Source: Candidatus Poribacteria bacterium (GTDB lineage: Bacteria; Poribacteria; WGA-4E; PCPOR2b). From it: DNA of 64,000 nucleotides. The DNA lies in NCBI GenBank assembly GCA_965218095.1, contig OZ244587.1, forward strand, positions 4,512,001 through 4,576,000. Direction: 5' to 3'. A program made the position numbers and the translations under genes. The stretch's first letter is position 1. Every line of letters begins with the position of its first letter. This document shows, one piece after another, positions 1-17,334 of the stretch. A model generated the notes under the pieces. The model ran no database searches, was not told the origin of the DNA, and saw nothing but the letters and a program-made list of their open reading frames with translations.

Positions 1-738
1 AATGAGTAACGTTGCGAATACGGTGCTACTCACATTGAAGCTGATCTCTTCGCGGGAAAATTGATATGTATCGTAAGTTGTTGTAACCTGATGTACTCGC
101 TCGCGGCGGTGCAATTTTGATGGCGTAAACCCAAGGTGCAAAATATCTTCTCTGATCTGCTCAAGATCTTCTGCTTTGCCGTAGAAGGAAATTCGACTTT
201 TTCCATCACCTTTAACGTAGTAGATATTGCCATCTCCCATCACGTACCCCAAGACTTTTAGCAGATATGGCAAGGCGGGTGAGTCGTATCTCAGCGGCAA
301 CAGATTGCGCTGCTTGAGATGCTTGATGACCTGTTCTCGTCGATTGCCGGATTGACTATCACTGAGTTGATCGAGCCAGCTTTCAATCTGTGCCTGGTCA
401 ACGATAATCTCATCTGATGGTTCTTCATAAGGCACACCTTGAAATGGTGATAACGCGACCTTATCGCCAATCTTGAACTTTAGCAGTTCGACCATCCCCT
501 TTGGCGTCCAGAAGGGGTGATCGGCCGTCGCCTTGATGGTATCACCGCCCTCGGTTTTCAGGCAATATACCGGCTGGGTCGGACGGAGTTTCAGATAATG
601 CCGCACAGAAGTTTGGGTTTCAAAGATATTTTGAAAATCCTGACAACGTAGCATAGCGGTTTCCCAATTTGAACCCATCTCTCCGATTCGTATGGTGTAA
701 CCATGTTGATGAAGTATTTCCGCGTCAGCCGCCAAGCA
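1..738 (-). mobile_element. Intein in RtcB with LAGLIDADG-type homing endonuclease (partial)
   Basis: Starts CLAADAKI right after GYDLN; block B ATADHPF; LAGLIDADG-like LGYVMGDG. Confidence 0.88.
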
Positions 739-1041
739 GTTGAGATCATACCCAATTCCTCCGGGAGACACGACGCCATCTGCCTCCGGATCGGTTGCCG
801 CGACCCCGCCAATCACGAAACCGTAGCCCCAATGCAGATCGGGCATTGCAAGTGAATACTTGATAATCCCAGGCAGATGTGCCACATTGGCAACCTGCTG
901 CAACGCTTCCTCGCTCTTGGCTTGTTGAAGTAATTTTTCATTCGCGTAGACAATTCCATCAACGCGCATTCCCCTCATGTAGCTTTTGGGGATGCGCCAT
1001 CGGTACTCATCGATTTTTTCCAAGGGTATCTCTTTTGCCAT
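1..1041 (-). CDS. rtcB: RNA ligase RtcB, intein-containing, 3'-truncated by window edge (absent from ORF track)
   Basis: Hand translation from ATG 1041: [18 protein letters not shown]...[20 protein letters not shown]...[13 protein letters not shown]; frame runs open to base 1. Confidence 0.93.
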
Positions 1042-2852: not shown

Positions 2853-2986
2853 TTTTACCTCCGTAGTTATTGTTGGTCAGAACGTTTGCTGATTTTGTTC
2901 TTAATCTCTGTCAAGGTCTCACTGATTCTGAAGAGACCCTTAGCGAACTCCTATGAAAGTCGCACGAAGTATAGAGTGAGTAGCAG

Positions 2987-4393
2987 GTGCGCCCATGCGT
3001 ATCAAGATGCGATGTCGGCTAGATTCCGACTCGGTGAACTTACCGCCGCATACCTAACTCTAACTGCGCTGCTGGAAACGGCAGGGTTAGAAGCAAGAGG
3101 AAAGGGCAAATGACTCAAAGGGAATGTAGACCCTTCAGGCTGTCATGTCAGGTAAGAGCAATATGACGAAAGCGAAAGTTGAACTGATAGTTGAAGCCTC
3201 GTAAACTCTGAACAGGTTAATCTACAAGTGGAAGACTTTAGAGACCTTCCAATAATCAGCCTGTAGCTAATAAAGCGTGAGCCAAGATACTCTATTCTGC
3301 TATTAGAGTATTGAAGGGCAATATATTTATTCTTTATATTGTCTTGTAAGTCGGAAGGCTTCGGGGTAAAGTCAGCGTCTAAGTTGCTCATGAAACGCAC
3401 CTTGAGAGAGTGTGGGAGTCCCTAAACCGTCTGAAATGAGAGGTTTTCAGACGGCAAGGGAGAGGAGACTGTATAAGGTCTCAAATAGAGGGTGCATATC
3501 CTTCTTTTAATCTGGCAGACCAAATAACCCCATTATTCAACTTGCCACAAGAAAGGAGGTGCAAATTCCATCTCACCGAAAGGAGGAAGTGCCATGCAAT
3601 TTATTTGCATGTTATCGCCCGCAAAGGAGGTGATGCTATGCAAACCTTCATAAGAGACGGTTGTTCTCTGATAGTACCTTACGAATACTATCAGGAATAT
3701 CTTGCCTATATCTGCTTTAAGCGTGCTATGGGTAGAAAGTACGATACTTTCGCTGAATACCTCGCCAAAAGGCAGAAAGGTGAGATAAGATAGCCTTCTA
3801 TTCGATGCCATTTTACACTTGGCTCTATTTGGAAGTCAAGTGTAAAATGACATAGAGACTCAAGCACAGTCAGGTTTATCGCTACGAAATCAATGCAGAA
3901 CCCGATTTAGGGATACTGGCGAAAATCGTGCGTAAGCATGTCGTCCAGCCCCCAATGTTCGGACAGCAGAGATAGTAACAGCGGTTGCAAGTGAAGAAGG
4001 CAGAAACATAGTAAGTTGGGGTGGTCATTGGTAAGGCAACCTAAACCACAACCACCAGACCGACCTACTGCTTGCTGATAGTTACTCATCTTCCTCAAGA
4101 GCGTGAACACGCCCAACGAGGTCATGAATAACTACAGCAAGACAATGTAGAGCGTAATTCTGCGTATGGGGTGTAGGTCAGTCAATTCCAGTAACCTATT
4201 AACCTCATCTATAGCAGTGAATACGTTTACAGGGGTTGAATCTGCCATTATAATCACCTCCTTTGATAATGTTACGATTGTTTAAGGAGGCGGTTTCAAT
4301 AATCACTTATAAACTGGAAACCCGTGTGCGGTGAAAGTCGCACGCACGGTTTGGAAGGGGGGAAAGACTTGCGAAAGTCCTACCTATCCTTAC
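2987..4393 (+). ncRNA. Group IIB intron, ORF-less (no RT/maturase)
   Basis: 5' GTGCG; EBS1 ctgcta (3297-3302, in hairpin loop) complementary to IBS1 tagcag (2981-2986); candidate EBS2 actct (3205-3209) / IBS2 agagt (2973-2977); DV 4319-4352; DVI with bulged A at -8; 3' AC; DIV only ~134 nt (4186-4319). Confidence 0.9.
3638..3793 (+). CDS. 51-aa hypothetical small protein inside the intron
   Basis: AAAGGAGGTG SD shortly before ATG; MQTFIRDGCSLIVPYEYYQEYLAYICFKRAMGRKYDTFAEYLAKRQKGEIR; followed by a 13-bp hairpin. Confidence 0.5.
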   Translation: MQTFIRDGCSLIVPYEYYQEYLAYICFKRAMGRKYDTFAEYLAKRQKGEIR

Positions 4394-4408
4394 AACCACC
4401 ATATAGAT

Positions 4409-5517
4409 GAGGGGTGTGCATAGTAGTTCATTGGAAAACAGCCGCCATATGAGAGATATTGCGAGCAGGTAACTTCCATATGGCATTGGCAATCATAGCC
4501 ACTTGCACTGATAACACCCCGATAGCTAAACAACAGCGTACATTGAAAAACCCCTTGACCGGTAACTGCTTCTGTTGAGGAGTGGTGCCTATCACTTTAG
4601 CAATCAAGTCAAACAACGGTTCAACCGAACTGCGACGTTTGCTTAAACAGAGACGCTGCTTGGGTTGGTTGATAAATCGATGATACGCCTTGGCAAACCG
4701 TCCCTTTGTCCATCTAAGTGCCGGGGTAATCAAAGCGACTTGTGCCTTCGCCCAACGACGGATACGGTCTGCTTGGGTATAGGCATCATCGGCAGTGAGT
4801 GTCTGCGGTGAAAGTTGTGTCAGAATCTCAGACGCTTTAGCATCTATCGCCCAACTTTCGGAGACCGACGCACGGTGCACAGTTATCAGTGTTGGGAACG
4901 CACCTTGTGTGCAGATAATGTGAAGTCCGTAGCCATAGACCCAGCCATGATAACCACTCTTGCTCCACGTGGCATCGGTGTCGAGGTTGCGTAGATGTTT
5001 AGGTACTTTTCCTGCTTTGCGGTCAGTTTGATGCCAGACGGGTCCTCGTGCCTTAAATAAACTTTTGTCGGCTACCAGATGAGCCAAGTTGAATTGTTGG
5101 GACAAGTCAGTGGCATACTGACCGATAAACAATACAAATACCTCTATCACTTCATATAATGCCTTATAGCGACGTGCAATCGTGGTTCGATGAGGGGGCT
5201 GTTGCCACCCCAGCATTTGTAACACTTCTGGGTGATTGATTAGCCACCGCCATTGCGTTTTGAAGCCATAGATGCCGTGAAACTGCATCAACATGAAGAA
5301 AATGATAAACGAGGTGGTTGAATATGTCAATGGTTTTGCGTGTGTGACACCTGGTTTGTCAATACGGTGTTGCATAAACTGCTCAAAGAGTTGCATAATA
5401 AGAGTGACATAATCAGCCAACATTGGTCTTTGTACCATATTGGGGCTCCTTTTGCTATGATAACAATAGGAAACCCTTTTGGCTTGATTATGTCAACTAT
5501 ATTTATGCACACCCCTC
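4409..5517 (-). mobile_element. Complete DDE insertion sequence (IS4/IS5-like), 1109 bp
   Basis: Perfect 14-bp TIR GAGGGGTGTGCATA; 8-bp TSD ATATAGAT at 4401-4408 and 5518-5525. Confidence 0.92.
4428..5438 (-). CDS. DDE transposase
   Basis: VADKS, DTDATWSKSGYHGWVYGYGLH, TADDAY, RSSVEPLF; lies inside TIRs. Confidence 0.9.
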   Translation of the reverse strand: MVQRPMLADYVTLIMQLFEQFMQHRIDKPGVTHAKPLTYSTTSFIIFFMLMQFHGIYGFKTQWRWLINHPEVLQMLGWQQPPHRTTIARRYKALYEVIEVFVLFIGQYATDLSQQFNLAHLVADKSLFKARGPVWHQTDRKAGKVPKHLRNLDTDATWSKSGYHGWVYGYGLHIICTQGAFPTLITVHRASVSESWAIDAKASEILTQLSPQTLTADDAYTQADRIRRWAKAQVALITPALRWTKGRFAKAYHRFINQPKQRLCLSKRRSSVEPLFDLIAKVIGTTPQQKQLPVKGFFNVRCCLAIGVLSVQVAMIANAIWKLPARNISHMAAVFQ

Positions 5518-6594
5518 ATATAGATAGTTTATGACGACAAAGCCATAAGTGAAAACACCTAATTTAGGGCGTAAGATCAGCTTCAGCCCCTCCCGACTTT
5601 CAAAGAGATCAAATGCCCGCTGCCATTCGGAGATCGGCATTTCGTGAGTGATCAACGTCTTTGTGGAAACCATCCCGTGTTCCATCAGCTTGAGCGCACG
5701 TTCCCATGCAGTTCGTTTCTGCGAGATGAAGCCCGTCACCTGAAGTTCCTTGAAGGCAATCCGTTCAAAGTCGATGTTGATCGGATTGCCAAATAAGCCC
5801 ATCTGCGTGTACTTTCCACGCTTGCGAACAAGTTCAAGCCCAAGCCGAGCCGCCGGCCCTGCCCCTGAGCACTCCAAGACGACATCAGCGCCATAGCCAT
5901 TGGTATGCGCCTTCATAGCTTCCACTGCATCCTCCTTCTCGACGTCGATTGTCAGAGCTGCGCCAAGTTCCTCCGCACGTTTGAGCCGATTTGCGTCCAC
6001 GGAGGTTCCACAGACAGCGACAATGCCACCCTCTGCTTTTGCCAGTTGCAAACTGAGCAGACCAATTGTTCCCGGCCCGGTGATCGCGACGAAGTCTCCG
6101 GCGGAGATCTTTGTCTGCTCAATAATGCCGTGAACACAGCAGGCAAGCGGCTCAGTGAGTGTTCCCAAAATGAAATCCACGTTCGGTGGGAGCTTGTGCA
6201 AACCGTGCTCGGGAGCGGTGCAATATTTCGCAAACGCGCCGTTATGCCAGTAGCCGAGGGCCTACCGCTGATCGCACAGGTTGTTAAATCCCGACCGGCA
6301 ATAGTCGCACTGTCCACACGTCCAAAAACCGGGTTCGACGGTCACGCGATCTCCGACTTTGACGCTCTTGACTTCAGTGCCGCACTTGGCGATCGTGCCG
6401 CTGAATTCGTGACCCATCACGACCAGCGGCCTCATCGGAAGGTTGATGTGGTCATGGTGGATATGCAGGTCGGACCCACAGATGCCTGCGCTATGAACCT
6501 CAACAAGCACCTCATTGGCGTTGGGCTTCCGAACCTCGACCTCGCGGAGTTCGGTGAATCCATCTCCATGTTGATATTTTACGACGCCTTTCAT
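5503..6594 (-). pseudogene. Zn-dependent alcohol/sugar dehydrogenase with in-frame TAG
   Basis: GICGSDLH, GHE, CGQCDYC...C, GPGTIG; ORFs 6262-6627 and 5503-6201 share a frame, split by TAG at 6262-6264; native stop apparently lost, reads into IS. Confidence 0.85.
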
Positions 6595-6684
6595 AAGAAC
6601 CTCTTCACTCATGAAATCCAAGCGCAAAAAGGAGAGCAGAACGTAACTCAGCCATTTTTTCTAAGGTATTAACTAATGGTGCTA

Positions 6685-13735: not shown

Positions 13736-14991
13736 CATTGATTAGCGCATTCATCACAGTGTTGCGCTGACTCCTCCTTCTCATCGTCGATTATGTGTAA
13801 TAGTAAATGCCCGAGCTTTGTTCGTTTCGTTTCCAGGTAGCGACGGTTGAATTCGTGCGGGAGGGTTTGCAGCGGAATCCGCTCGACAATCGCAAGGTTA
13901 TGTCCCTCCAAACCGCTGACCTTTCGAGGGTTATTTGTCAAAAGACGCATCTTCTGCACACCGAGATCGGCCAAAATTTGGGCCCCAACGCCGTAATCTC
14001 GCAAATCGGGGGGAAAGCCAAGTTGCTCATTCGCTTCGACGGTATCGAGTCCCTCGCTATCCTGCAACTTGTAGGCGCGAATCTTGTTTCCAAGCCCCAT
14101 GCCACGCCCCTCCTGGCGCATGTATACCAGTACGCCTCGTCCCCCTTTTTGGATTAATTCCATTGCTGTCTCTAACTGTTCGCCACAGTCGCAACGAAGC
14201 GATCCGAACACATCTCCAGTGAAGCACTGTGAGTGCATGCGTACCAACACAGGTTCACCGTCTGAAACATTGCCCTTGACAAGCGCGATATGGGTCTTTT
14301 GATCATCAGCACTCTCGTAAGCATGGAGCTTGAAATATCCGTGCTTGGTTTGGAGGTCTGCTTCCGTAACCCGCTTGATGAGCGTTTCCGTTTGTCGCCG
14401 ATACGCGATGAGATCCGCAATGGTGATGAACTTTAGCCCGTGTTTTTGAGAAAACTTGAAGAGTTGAGGCAGTCGCGCCATCGTTCCATCTTCATTCAAA
14501 ATCTCGCAGAGGACGCCCGCCGGATAGAGCCCTGCGAGCTGTGCGAGATCAACTGTTGCCTCAGTATGCCCGGCCCGTCTCAGTACACCGCCAGCCATCG
14601 CGCGTAACGGGAAAATGTGTCCCGGACGTACGAAGTCCTCCCCTCTTGTCTGCGGATGGACAAATTTCTGGATCGTATGCGCACGTTCATACGCGGAGAT
14701 GCCGGTGGTCACATCTTTGGCATCAATTGTGACGGTAAACGCCGTATGCATCTGGTCCGTGTTTTCCGAAACCATTAGTGGGAGATTCAACTCTGACAAA
14801 CGCTCCGCGGTTGCAGGGAGACAAATCATGCCACGCCCGTACTTTGCCATAAAATTGATCGCTTCAGGCGTAACTTTTTCAGCCGCCATGGTCAGGTCGC
14901 CTTCGTTTTCCCGGTCCGGATCATCAGCGACGATAACCATCTCGCCACTCCGAATCGCTTCAATCACTTCTGGAATTGTATTAAACTTCAT
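13735..14991 (-). CDS. ribBA: Bifunctional DHBP synthase / GTP cyclohydrolase II
   Basis: [32 protein letters not shown]. Confidence 0.97.
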
Positions 14992-17194: not shown

Positions 17195-17207
17195 GGAAGA
17201 ATCCCTT

Positions 17208-17334
17208 CTGCCTTCTCCCATCCGGACTTTCACCGTCGGCTCTGGAATCACACCAAATCTGTCCCCGATCGCAGATCGGGGGACTCGCGGGCTTTACCGC
17301 CGGTAGGGAATTGCACCCGTCCCCGAAGACACGC
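17208..17334 (-). ncRNA. FMN riboswitch
   Basis: cttcggggacgggtgcaattccctaccggcggtaaagcccgcgag ... gccgacggtgaaagtccggatgggagaag upstream of ribD. Confidence 0.96.

What the first reader, a model, noticed from the sequence alone, without database searches (positions are those of the whole stretch)
2987..4393. ORF-less group IIB intron with intact exon pairing but an ACC catalytic triad
Seen: GTGCG start, EBS1/IBS1 (ctgcta/tagcag), plausible EBS2/IBS2, bulged A at -8, AC end and a ~134-nt DIV with no RT. DV reads AACCCGTGTGCGGTGAAAGTCGCACGCACGGTTT, giving A-C-C at 4320-4322 where AGC/CGC is essentially invariant. No host ORF is visibly interrupted. Inference: a freshly inactivated non-autonomous intron, a base-call error, or a non-splicing intron-derived RNA kept for another role.
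Basis: partly seen in the sequence, partly recalled or inferred. Interest (0 to 1): 0.75.

Follow-up and report, generated by a model that had tools for sequence, protein, structure and literature searches.

The report
Dead copy of a group II intron
This is a real self-splicing-type (group II) intron that has lost its reverse transcriptase, and one private base change at the heart of its catalytic centre most likely makes this copy a dead relic.

Summary
Window 2987-4393 (+) is a 1407-nt group II intron: GTGCG start, Rfam DV/DVI match at 59.6 bits, bulged A at -8, AC end, and 6/6 pairing of ctgcta with tagcag. DV reads A-C-C at 4320-4322.

ACC is private to this copy. Of 23 DV matches in the same genome, 20 read AGC, 2 AAC and 1 ACC. 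A sister copy is 99.1% identical over the ribozyme core and reads AGC. In 29 genomes of the family, the same DV pattern reads AGC 34 times, AAC once and ACC once, ours. A public-run contig reproduces C at 4321, so a base-call error is unlikely.

Two corrections. DIV is about 800 nt, not 134. It is not empty: it holds a conserved 51-aa micro-ORF that is not an RT.

The intron lies in non-coding DNA, with an IS element 14 nt after its 3' end.

Side finding: the family has two tandem hairpins, and either can pair with the 5' exon. This copy and its sister have identical loops but use different ones.

The parts
2972..2977 (+). IBS2 (TAGAGT) in the 5' exon
   Evidence: Complementary to 3205-3210 (6 pairs, 1 G-U), read. 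The loop's role is supported by covariation in relatives.
2981..2986 (+). IBS1 (TAGCAG), the last six bases of the 5' exon
   Evidence: 6/6 Watson-Crick with 3297-3302.
2987..4393 (+). Group II intron copy 'A', 1407 nt, with no RT
   Evidence: GTGCG at the 5' end. Rfam DV/DVI match at the 3' end. 99.1% identical over 2987-3633 to sister copy B at G000:3601485-3602927, with unrelated flanks.
3205..3210 (+). EBS2 (ACTCTG), in the loop of the GCCTCG...CAGGT hairpin
   Evidence: Compensatory exon/loop changes in relatives: L083 against L085, and G022 against G023 copies.
3295..3303 (+). Hairpin HP1, 9-nt loop TTCTGCTAT. Its positions 3-8 (3297-3302, CTGCTA) are the EBS1 used at this site.
3326..3334 (+). 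Hairpin HP2, 9-nt loop TTTATTCTT. Its positions 3-8 (TATTCT) pair 6/6 with the exon of sister copy B (AGAATA), not with this copy's exon.
3505..4312 (+). Domain IV, about 800 nt (approximate bounds), with no RT remnant
   Evidence: Alignments with family members. Pfam finds nothing. tblastn with the genome's intron-encoded protein gives only noise.
3552..3630 (+). Three AAAGGAGG motifs (3552-3559, 3579-3586, 3623-3630) upstream of the micro-ORF
   Evidence: Read. Identical in copy B.
3638..3793 (+). Micro-ORF, 51 aa plus stop, member of a small conserved protein family of unknown function
   Evidence: Conserved in frame in copy B, with a 24-nt indel; 7 synonymous and 10 nonsynonymous codon differences in 42 codons. 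A 41-aa homologue occurs in G007. Five cluster representatives score E 1.1e-13 to 7.8e-08 among 1.84 billion proteins. AlphaFold2 model pLDDT 85.9.
3809..3849 (.). 13-bp perfect hairpin after the micro-ORF, conserved in copy B
   Evidence: Read. Not followed by a T run; the only terminator-like site is 3487-3505 (+), near the DIII/DIV boundary.
4046..4260 (.). Segment of DIV unique to this copy. Copy B has unrelated sequence here, with a 67-aa two-helix membrane-like ORF on the opposite strand.
   Evidence: 33.5% identical columns.
4319..4352 (+). Domain V. Triad position 4320-4322 reads ACC in place of AGC.
   Evidence: The MFE base of the helix opens: -14.2 kcal/mol against -17.4 in copy B.
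4355..4393 (+). Domain VI, with bulged A at 4386 and 3' terminal AC
   Evidence: alignment. Identical to copy B.
4408..5518 (-). IS element with a DDE_Tnp_1 transposase, 15-bp terminal inverted repeats and a 6-bp target duplication TATAGA (4402-4407 and 5519-5524), 14 nt after the 3' splice site
   Evidence: 39 further copies at over 99% identity in the genome. Ends and duplications. Pfam.

Best explanation
Window 2987-4393 is one of at least 13 related group II introns in this genome, which by GTDB family is kin of a Candidatus Poribacteria MAG.

It is a derivative without a reverse transcriptase/maturase. It reached this non-coding site by reverse splicing, guided by its EBS1 and EBS2 loops; that step is inferred from the intact pairings.

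After it separated from its sister copy, it picked up a G-to-C change at the middle base of the DV catalytic triad (4321). In solved group II introns this guanine forms the G.U wobble of the metal-binding triple helix, and even a conservative G-to-A change nearly abolishes catalysis. This copy is therefore most likely unable to splice or reverse-splice. It is a recently killed relic, further isolated by an IS insertion 14 nt downstream.

Shown: the anatomy, the privacy of the change, and its presence in a public-run contig.
Inferred: the loss of activity and the order of events.
For: 1. Genuine intron.

2. ACC is private.
- 20 AGC, 2 AAC and 1 ACC among 23 DV matches in the genome. Only 150 of 527 candidates were scored, so 23 is a lower bound.
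- In sister copy B the 77-nt DV/DVI differs only at this base.
- B is 641 of 647 identical over 2987-3633 and has unrelated flanks.
- In 29 genomes of the family, the exact DV pattern reads AGC 34 times, AAC once (G066) and ACC once.

3. The C is real in at least one read set. Contig record 5 of run X1 covers 3817-4351 with 0 differences, at depth 5.9.

4. Functional weight of the base (all three papers read as passages only).
- PMC3669008: G359 of the triad is invariant, pairs as G-U, and G359A abolishes activity 'almost completely' by loss of metal binding.
- PMC4424553: the triad is AGC, or CGC in some introns.
- PMC4496777: a triad mutant is the splicing-dead control, and genomic RmInt1 copies are inactivated by single point mutations.

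5. Nothing is served by splicing here.
- No ORF spans the junction.
- An IS lies 14 nt downstream.
- The genome's only intron-encoded RT/maturase (in the intron at 598220-600671) is broken across frames.
Against: - Run X1 may be the very data the assembly was made from, so the support for C at 4321 is not independent. No listed contig of the other three runs crosses 4321 together with this copy's unique DIV.
- The rest of this copy's ribozyme is clean. Its private change at 3089 turns a U.G pair into U-A by my own pairing's alignment, and all exon pairings are intact. A copy left to drift for long would show more damage, so the inactivation is either very recent or the RNA is still under some constraint.
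- Contigs from two RNA libraries cover 3587-4252 at 99% or more. The tool warns that this does not show transcription.
- Loss of activity was not measured.
Confidence: 0.72

Rival explanations
1. The intron-derived RNA is kept for another role. On this reading the ACC copy is a non-splicing, stably folded transcript that serves as an expression platform for the DIV micro-ORF (three strong Shine-Dalgarno motifs, a 51-aa conserved protein) or for a DIV non-coding RNA, and loss of splicing is tolerated or even favoured.
For: - The micro-ORF belongs to a real, conserved small-protein family.
- It is kept in frame in both copies, while neighbouring DIV sequence carries frame-breaking indels.
- The ribozyme core of both copies is 99.1% identical while DIV is 26-86% identical, depending on the segment. 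That fits constraint on the fold.
Against: - Sister copy B carries the same micro-ORF with an intact AGC, so ACC is not needed for it.
- ACC is seen in one copy only.
- High identity of the core is equally explained by recent copying or by gene conversion.
- Transcription is not shown.
Confidence: 0.13
2. Assembly or base-call error: the true base at 4321 is G, and this is an ordinary, active RT-less intron that depends on a protein supplied in trans.
For: - It is a single-base difference from an otherwise identical DV/DVI.
- The genome's only intron-encoded protein shows frame breaks that could themselves be assembly errors.
- Repeats such as DV are hard to polish.
Against: - A separately built contig of run X1 reads C at 4321, in one piece with 500 nt of copy-specific DIV and with 0 differences.
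- The nearby T at 4308 (G in copy B) lies on the same contig, so this is not a mix-up with copy B.
Confidence: 0.08
3. The ACC form still splices, for example with help from a host or trans-acting protein that tolerates the C/U mismatch.
For: All other elements are intact: GTGCG, EBS/IBS pairings, DV bulge and GAAA loop, and the DVI branch A.
Against: - Even the pair-preserving G-to-A change at this base nearly abolishes activity in the O. iheyensis intron (PMC3669008, passages).
- Among 59 DVs whose triad I read, none but this one reads ACC: 23 in the genome, and 36 family-type patterns in 29 genomes, which overlap the 23 in part.
- No joint 2986/4394 appears among the listed joints.
Confidence: 0.05

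Closest known systems
[quoted passage not shown]
   Same: - No RT or maturase in DIV.
- The genome holds related introns. One encodes an RT + X + HNH protein, and one carries an internally deleted remnant of such a protein (i1598).
- The ribozyme domains and exon pairings are otherwise complete.
   Different: - The only full-length helper protein is frame-broken in this assembly.
- DIV is not a small stub or a protein remnant. It is about 800 nt of unrelated sequence with a conserved non-RT micro-ORF.
- The triad is ACC.
RmInt1 copies of Sinorhizobium meliloti 1021 inactivated by single point mutations (PMC4496777, passages)
   Same: Near-identical genomic copies of one intron, some disabled by one base change in the ribozyme. 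The authors read this as ongoing inactivation of a mobile intron within a genome.
   Different: In RmInt1 the natural mutations lie in DI (C232) and next to the DV bulge (C1832). Here the change hits the triad itself, which in that paper is mutated only in the engineered negative control.
Oceanobacillus iheyensis intron active-site mutant G359A (PMC3669008, passages)
   Same: The same base of the catalytic triad is changed: the middle G, which forms the G.U wobble.
   Different: - G359A keeps a pair (A-U), is engineered, and sits in a IIC intron with a CGC triad.
- Here the change is G to C, which leaves a C/U mismatch, and it is natural.

Membership tests
Group II intron (ribozyme) | 5' end GUGYG | tested here: met
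   GTGCG at 2987-2991. The same start occurs in all 13 family copies examined: 12 GTGCG and 1 GTGTG.
Group II intron (ribozyme) | Domain V helix followed by domain VI (Rfam RF00029) | tested here: met
   59.6 bits against a gathering score of 40, full model 1-77.
Group II intron (ribozyme) | Catalytic triad AGC (or CGC) at the base of DV | tested here: not met
   ACC at 4320-4322, with a non-standard pair flagged by cmscan. Of 23 DVs in the genome, 20 read AGC.
Group II intron (ribozyme) | Bulged branch-point A in DVI, 7-8 nt from the 3' end; 3' end AY | tested here: met
   A at 4386 (-8) and an AC end.
Group II intron (ribozyme) | EBS1-IBS1 and EBS2-IBS2 pairing with the 5' exon | tested here: met
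   EBS1-IBS1 is 6/6 Watson-Crick. The control of loops against the exons of other introns gave 0 of 342. EBS2-IBS2 has 6 pairs including one G-U.
Group II intron (ribozyme) | Domains I-III of recognisable type | tested here: inconclusive
   Rfam group-II-D1D4-7 scores 26.4 bits, below its gathering score of 34. However, the region aligns throughout with 12 other introns of the genome.
Group II intron (ribozyme) | Splicing (ligated exons, lariat) | not testable with these tools
   Only contigs of public runs were available. No 2986/4394 joint was listed, which proves nothing.
Mobile group II intron (retroelement form) | RT/maturase ORF in DIV | tested here: not met
   Pfam finds no family in the DIV ORFs. 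PF00078 and PF08388 do not hit this locus. tblastn with the family's protein gives only noise.
Subgroup IIB | EBS2 present; EBS3 in the coordination loop rather than a delta base next to EBS1; class-specific DI/DIII features | not tested
EBS2 is present.

The most novel reading that the evidence does not exclude
The lineage of this intron and its sister is a two-specificity, cargo-carrying group II intron.

Its domain I has two tandem hairpins with 9-nt loops, and positions 3-8 of either loop can serve as EBS1. The two copies have identical loops but sit at two unrelated sites: this copy at a site matching HP1 (TAGCAG), the sister at a site matching HP2 (AGAATA), each 6/6. Across the family, close relatives switch between the two loops.

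In place of an RT, DIV carries a conserved micro-protein of a family seen so far only in or right beside such introns (3 of 3 genomic contexts seen).

If so, a duplicated target-recognition loop would be a natural way for an intron to widen its target range, and the micro-protein would be a new kind of intron passenger or helper.
Probability: 0.3. Interest if true: 0.7.

Novelty: new member of a known kind. Interest (0 to 1): 0.33.

Why it matters
As posed, it matters little. A single private mutation has killed one copy of a multi-copy mobile intron, which is the expected way for such elements to decay. It is still a clean natural example of a hit on the most conserved base of the ribozyme.

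The surroundings are more instructive:
- The phylum-level group involved (kin of Candidatus Poribacteria) turned up in two papers alongside group II introns, neither of which, judging by title and abstract start, is about introns in that group.
- The genome holds at least 13 related introns served by at most one, frame-broken, helper protein.
- DIV has been refilled with a conserved non-RT micro-ORF.
- Domain I has two tandem exon-binding hairpins that appear to be used alternatively. My phrase search found no paper on duplicated or alternative EBS1 hairpins. It returned one paper, listed for the phrase 'alternative EBS1', which I did not open.

If the last point holds up at the bench, it bears on how group II introns change targets, and on their design as gene-targeting tools.

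Tried and rejected
1. Spliced product. The contigs of four public runs laid on 2900-4500 listed no joint 2986/4394. The listed joints (for example 3134/4311 and 3891/4301) fit shorter relatives or copy B. Contigs cannot show absence, so this is not used as evidence.

2. Transcription. Contigs from RNA libraries X5 and X7 cover 3587-4252, but DNA carry-over cannot be excluded.

3. Function of the micro-ORF.
- Pfam found nothing at or below E 0.05. The weak hits were DUF7688, DUF5338 and DUF2089.
- The word-based homologue search found nothing.
- PDB sequence search: best E 0.35.
- Foldseek against PDB: best E 5.
- Protein atlas: one unnamed cluster at 0.78, below the useful range.
- From recall only, the strand-helix-helix pattern reminded me of ribbon-helix-helix repressors or antitoxins. 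No tool supported this, and I do not claim it.

4. Minus-strand ORFs in DIV (4248-4135 and 4125-3907). They share one frame and are split by a TAG. Pfam finds nothing, and in copy B the homologous DNA has frame-breaking indels. I treat them as non-coding.

5. Remnant of the intron-encoded protein in DIV: none.

6. More copies of this lineage.
- No DIV match in 40 relatives by DNA.
- No exact DV-DVI match in metagenome contigs.
- The micro-protein pattern was not confirmed in metagenome contigs.

7. HP1 as a classical EBS2, with IBS1 deleted from this copy's exon. Rejected: the real EBS2 is another loop, shown by covariation, and a precise 6-nt deletion is unlikely.

8. Shine-Dalgarno targeting by the family. 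7 of 13 copies have an SD-like IBS2 and a start codon at the junction, but the ORFs that follow are only 17-74 aa (none near the junction for i267). This is left as an observation.

Supplementary files of papers were not consulted. Of PMC4424553, PMC4496777 and PMC3669008 I saw only the passages returned by 'find'. All other papers I saw only as search listings.

Full report
**What is there**

Window 2987-4393 (+) starts with GTGCG. It ends with a full-length match to Rfam Intron_gpII (DV plus DVI) at 4317-4393: 59.6 bits against a gathering score of 40, E 3.5e-09. A permissive scan adds only a sub-threshold group-II-D1D4-7 match at 3030-3173, 26.4 bits against 34.

The DV alignment shows A-C-C where the model has A-G-C, and cmscan flags the pair as non-standard. 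C4321 faces the U that normally forms the G.U wobble. The bulged A lies at 4386 (-8) and the intron ends in AC.

**Is ACC a property of the family or of this copy?**

The window is G000:C1:4512001-4576000. The genome holds 23 Rfam DV/DVI matches; only 150 of 527 first-look candidates were scored, so 23 is a lower bound. Reading them out gives 20 AGC, 2 AAC and 1 ACC, this one.

A sister copy, B (G000:3601485-3602927, 1443 nt), has a 77-nt DV/DVI identical to ours except G for C at the triad. It is 641 of 647 identical over 2987-3633. Its flanks are unrelated, so the two are separate insertions and not a segmental duplication.

Across 29 genomes of the same GTDB family, the exact DV pattern of this family occurs 34 times with AGC. 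It occurs once with AAC (G066) and once with ACC, ours. One member of that family is labelled a Candidatus Poribacteria MAG by its own record title.

ACC is therefore a private, derived substitution.

**Is the base real?**

Contigs of four public runs were laid on 2900-4500. Record 5 of run X1 (535 nt, depth 5.9) covers 3817-4351 with no difference. It therefore carries C at 4321 on the same piece as 500 nt of DIV that only this copy has. It also carries T at 4308, where copy B has G.

This speaks against a base-call error, but the run may be the assembly's own source. None of the listed contigs of the other three runs links 4321 to the unique DIV.

**What the change should do**

I saw only passages of the following papers.
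- PMC4424553: the DV triad is AGC, or CGC in some introns, and binds the catalytic metals.
- PMC3669008: the middle G (G359 in the O. iheyensis intron) is invariant and forms a G-U wobble. Even G359A, which keeps a pair, abolishes activity almost completely because the catalytic metals no longer bind.
- PMC4496777: a triad mutant serves as the splicing-dead control, and natural RmInt1 copies in one genome are inactivated by single point mutations.

Here G to C leaves a C/U mismatch. In the minimum-free-energy fold the three base pairs at the foot of DV open, giving -14.2 kcal/mol against -17.4 for copy B. Loss of splicing and of reverse splicing is thus a well-grounded inference, but it was not measured.

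**Exon pairing**

I located EBS2 by comparison. In multi-copy 742-nt relatives from three other genomes, the 5' exon is conserved (AACCYAAGTTGCTAG|). The loop of the GCCTCG...CAGGT hairpin co-varies with the exon: CCCAA with TTGGG in G022, and CCTAA with TTAGG in G023. In another subfamily it is CAAACT with AGTTTG in L083, and CAATCT with AGATTG in L085.

In our copy that loop gives ACTCTG (3205-3210) against TAGAGT (2972-2977): six pairs, one of them G-U. Both pairings are therefore intact, and the copy sits at a cognate site.

**An unexpected feature of the family**

Most of the 13 copies I delimited in this genome have two tandem hairpins with 9-nt loops, HP1 and HP2. The last six exon bases are complementary to loop positions 3-8 of one of them.
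- HP1: this copy, i2598 and i707; i598; and the single hairpin of i4426.
- HP2: copy B, i1598, i5863, i5526 and i468.

That is 9 of 13 by script, counting 6 pairs with at least 5 Watson-Crick, plus i598. The remaining i4389, i267 and i4703 reach 5 of 6 at best. Pairing every loop with the exons of the other introns gave 0 of 342.

Close relatives differ in which loop they use. Examples are i5526 against i2598 and i598, and i5863 against i707.

Most tellingly, this copy and copy B have identical loops. Ours sits at a site that fits HP1 (TAGCAG), and B at a site that fits HP2 (AGAATA). The nearest relative in another genome (G016) is of the HP2 type, with an exon like B's...AGAAGAATAA.

I read this as a duplicated EBS1 hairpin whose two copies are used alternatively, with our copy perhaps an ectopic insertion through HP1. 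This is inference. A phrase search found no description of such a thing: the one paper returned was listed for the phrase 'alternative EBS1', and I did not open it.

**Domain IV**

DI-DIII aligns with the other copies up to about 3505, and DV begins at 4319, so DIV is about 800 nt.

It holds no RT.
- Pfam finds nothing in its ORFs.
- PF00078 and PF08388 hit only the intron at 598220-600671, plus one unrelated RT.
- tblastn with that intron's protein gives only noise in both copies.

By contrast, i1598 and the G016 relative keep an internally deleted protein (N-terminus joined to the HNH end, 159 aa in G016). That shows how the family usually loses its ORF.

The single full-length protein gene is split across frames in this assembly. 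It is either a pseudogene or carries assembly indels.

**What DIV does hold**

Three AAAGGAGG motifs (3552-3630) precede a 51-aa ORF at 3638-3793.

Copy B keeps this ORF in frame despite a 24-nt indel. It shows 7 synonymous and 10 nonsynonymous codon differences in 42 codons. The DNA further on differs by frame-breaking indels.

A 41-aa homologue (E 1.2e-04, 1 of 150 other genomes of the order searched) lies in G007. There it sits about 40 nt upstream of a related intron that has lost its first ~28 nt.

A profile of the three sequences finds five cluster representatives of 35-46 aa, with E 1.1e-13 to 7.8e-08, among 1.84 billion proteins. The AlphaFold2 model on the 8-sequence alignment is confident (pLDDT 85.9): a short hairpin followed by two helices.

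No family, structure or atlas search names a function.

The segment 4046-4260 is unique to this copy. Copy B has other sequence there, with a 67-aa two-helix membrane-like ORF on the opposite strand.

**Setting**

No ORF crosses the exon junction of this copy or of B.

Fourteen bases after the 3' splice site lies an IS element at 4408-5518. It encodes a DDE_Tnp_1 transposase, has 15-bp inverted ends and a TATAGA target duplication at 4402-4407 and 5519-5524, and has 39 further copies at over 99% identity.

Upstream lie fragments of other repeats. The neighbourhood also holds two more transposase genes and a split zinc-dehydrogenase gene.

Both this copy and B lie antisense to, and at the 3' end of, a convergent gene. 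Nothing obvious depends on their splicing.

**Verdict**

This is a non-autonomous group II intron copy disabled by one recent base change at the most conserved base of the ribozyme. I put this at 0.72.

The rivals are retention for another role (0.13), assembly error (0.08) and residual splicing (0.05).

The parts worth a second look are side products: the two alternative exon-binding hairpins, and the conserved micro-ORF that fills DIV in place of the RT.

Noticed in passing
window 3295-3334; family copies in G000 (coordinates); L086: Two tandem 9-nt-loop hairpins in domain I. The last six exon bases pair with loop positions 3-8 of either the first or the second hairpin. Usage switches between close relatives, and between the two sister copies, whose loops are identical. 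Own-exon matches were 9 of 13 by script, plus one; the foreign-exon control gave 0 of 342.
   Followed up: partly
window 3638-3793; L002:2148-2276; L063:1492-1617: A conserved micro-protein family of 35-51 aa, with motif ..VPxE.Y.EYEAxICF.RAMG..YxTF. It lies inside DIV of two introns and just upstream of a truncated related intron in a Candidatus Poribacteria MAG. It has five further cluster representatives in 1.84 billion proteins. Function unknown.
   Followed up: partly
G000:598220-600671 (outside the window): The only group II RT/maturase/HNH gene in the genome is split across reading frames, with one TGA inside the RT match. At least 13 related introns and 23 DVs therefore share at most one, possibly broken, helper protein.
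   Followed up: partly
G000 copies i1598, i5863, i5526, i2598, i267, i598 and i468: In 7 of 13 family copies, IBS2 is a Shine-Dalgarno-like AAGGAG/GGAGG at -15 to -11, and six of the seven (not i267) have a start codon at or beside the insertion point. The intron loops that pair with it resemble an anti-SD. The ORFs that follow are short (17-74 aa).
   Followed up: partly
window 4408-5518: An IS element with a DDE transposase, 15-bp inverted ends and 6-8-bp target duplications, present in 40 near-identical copies (over 99%) in the 6.35-Mb genome. This points to a recent burst.
   Followed up: partly
G000:1767684-1767773, G000:5730063-5730142 and G066:C111:40818-40849: Three other group II DVs read AAC at the triad, the same kind of change as the engineered dead mutant G359A. 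They are probably further dead copies.
   Followed up: no
window 1-1041 (-): The start of an RtcB RNA-ligase gene interrupted by an intein. Pfam gives RtcB for residues 49-102, followed by Intein_splicing.
   Followed up: no
window 17206-17334 (-) and 14793-14894 (+): An FMN riboswitch at 112.5 bits, and a borderline match to Vibrio RNA AS9 at 50.9 bits against a gathering score of 50. The second is probably chance in this organism.
   Followed up: no
window 5503-6627 (-): A zinc-dependent dehydrogenase gene is split into an N-terminal ORF (6262-6627) and a C-terminal ORF (5503-6201). The tail of the C-terminal ORF runs into the IS end.
   Followed up: no
window 3918-4262: Contigs of three runs (X5, X6, X7) differ from the window by one indel and by T>C at 4210 within the copy-specific DIV segment. 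Strains therefore vary here. The indel's position was not shown.
   Followed up: no
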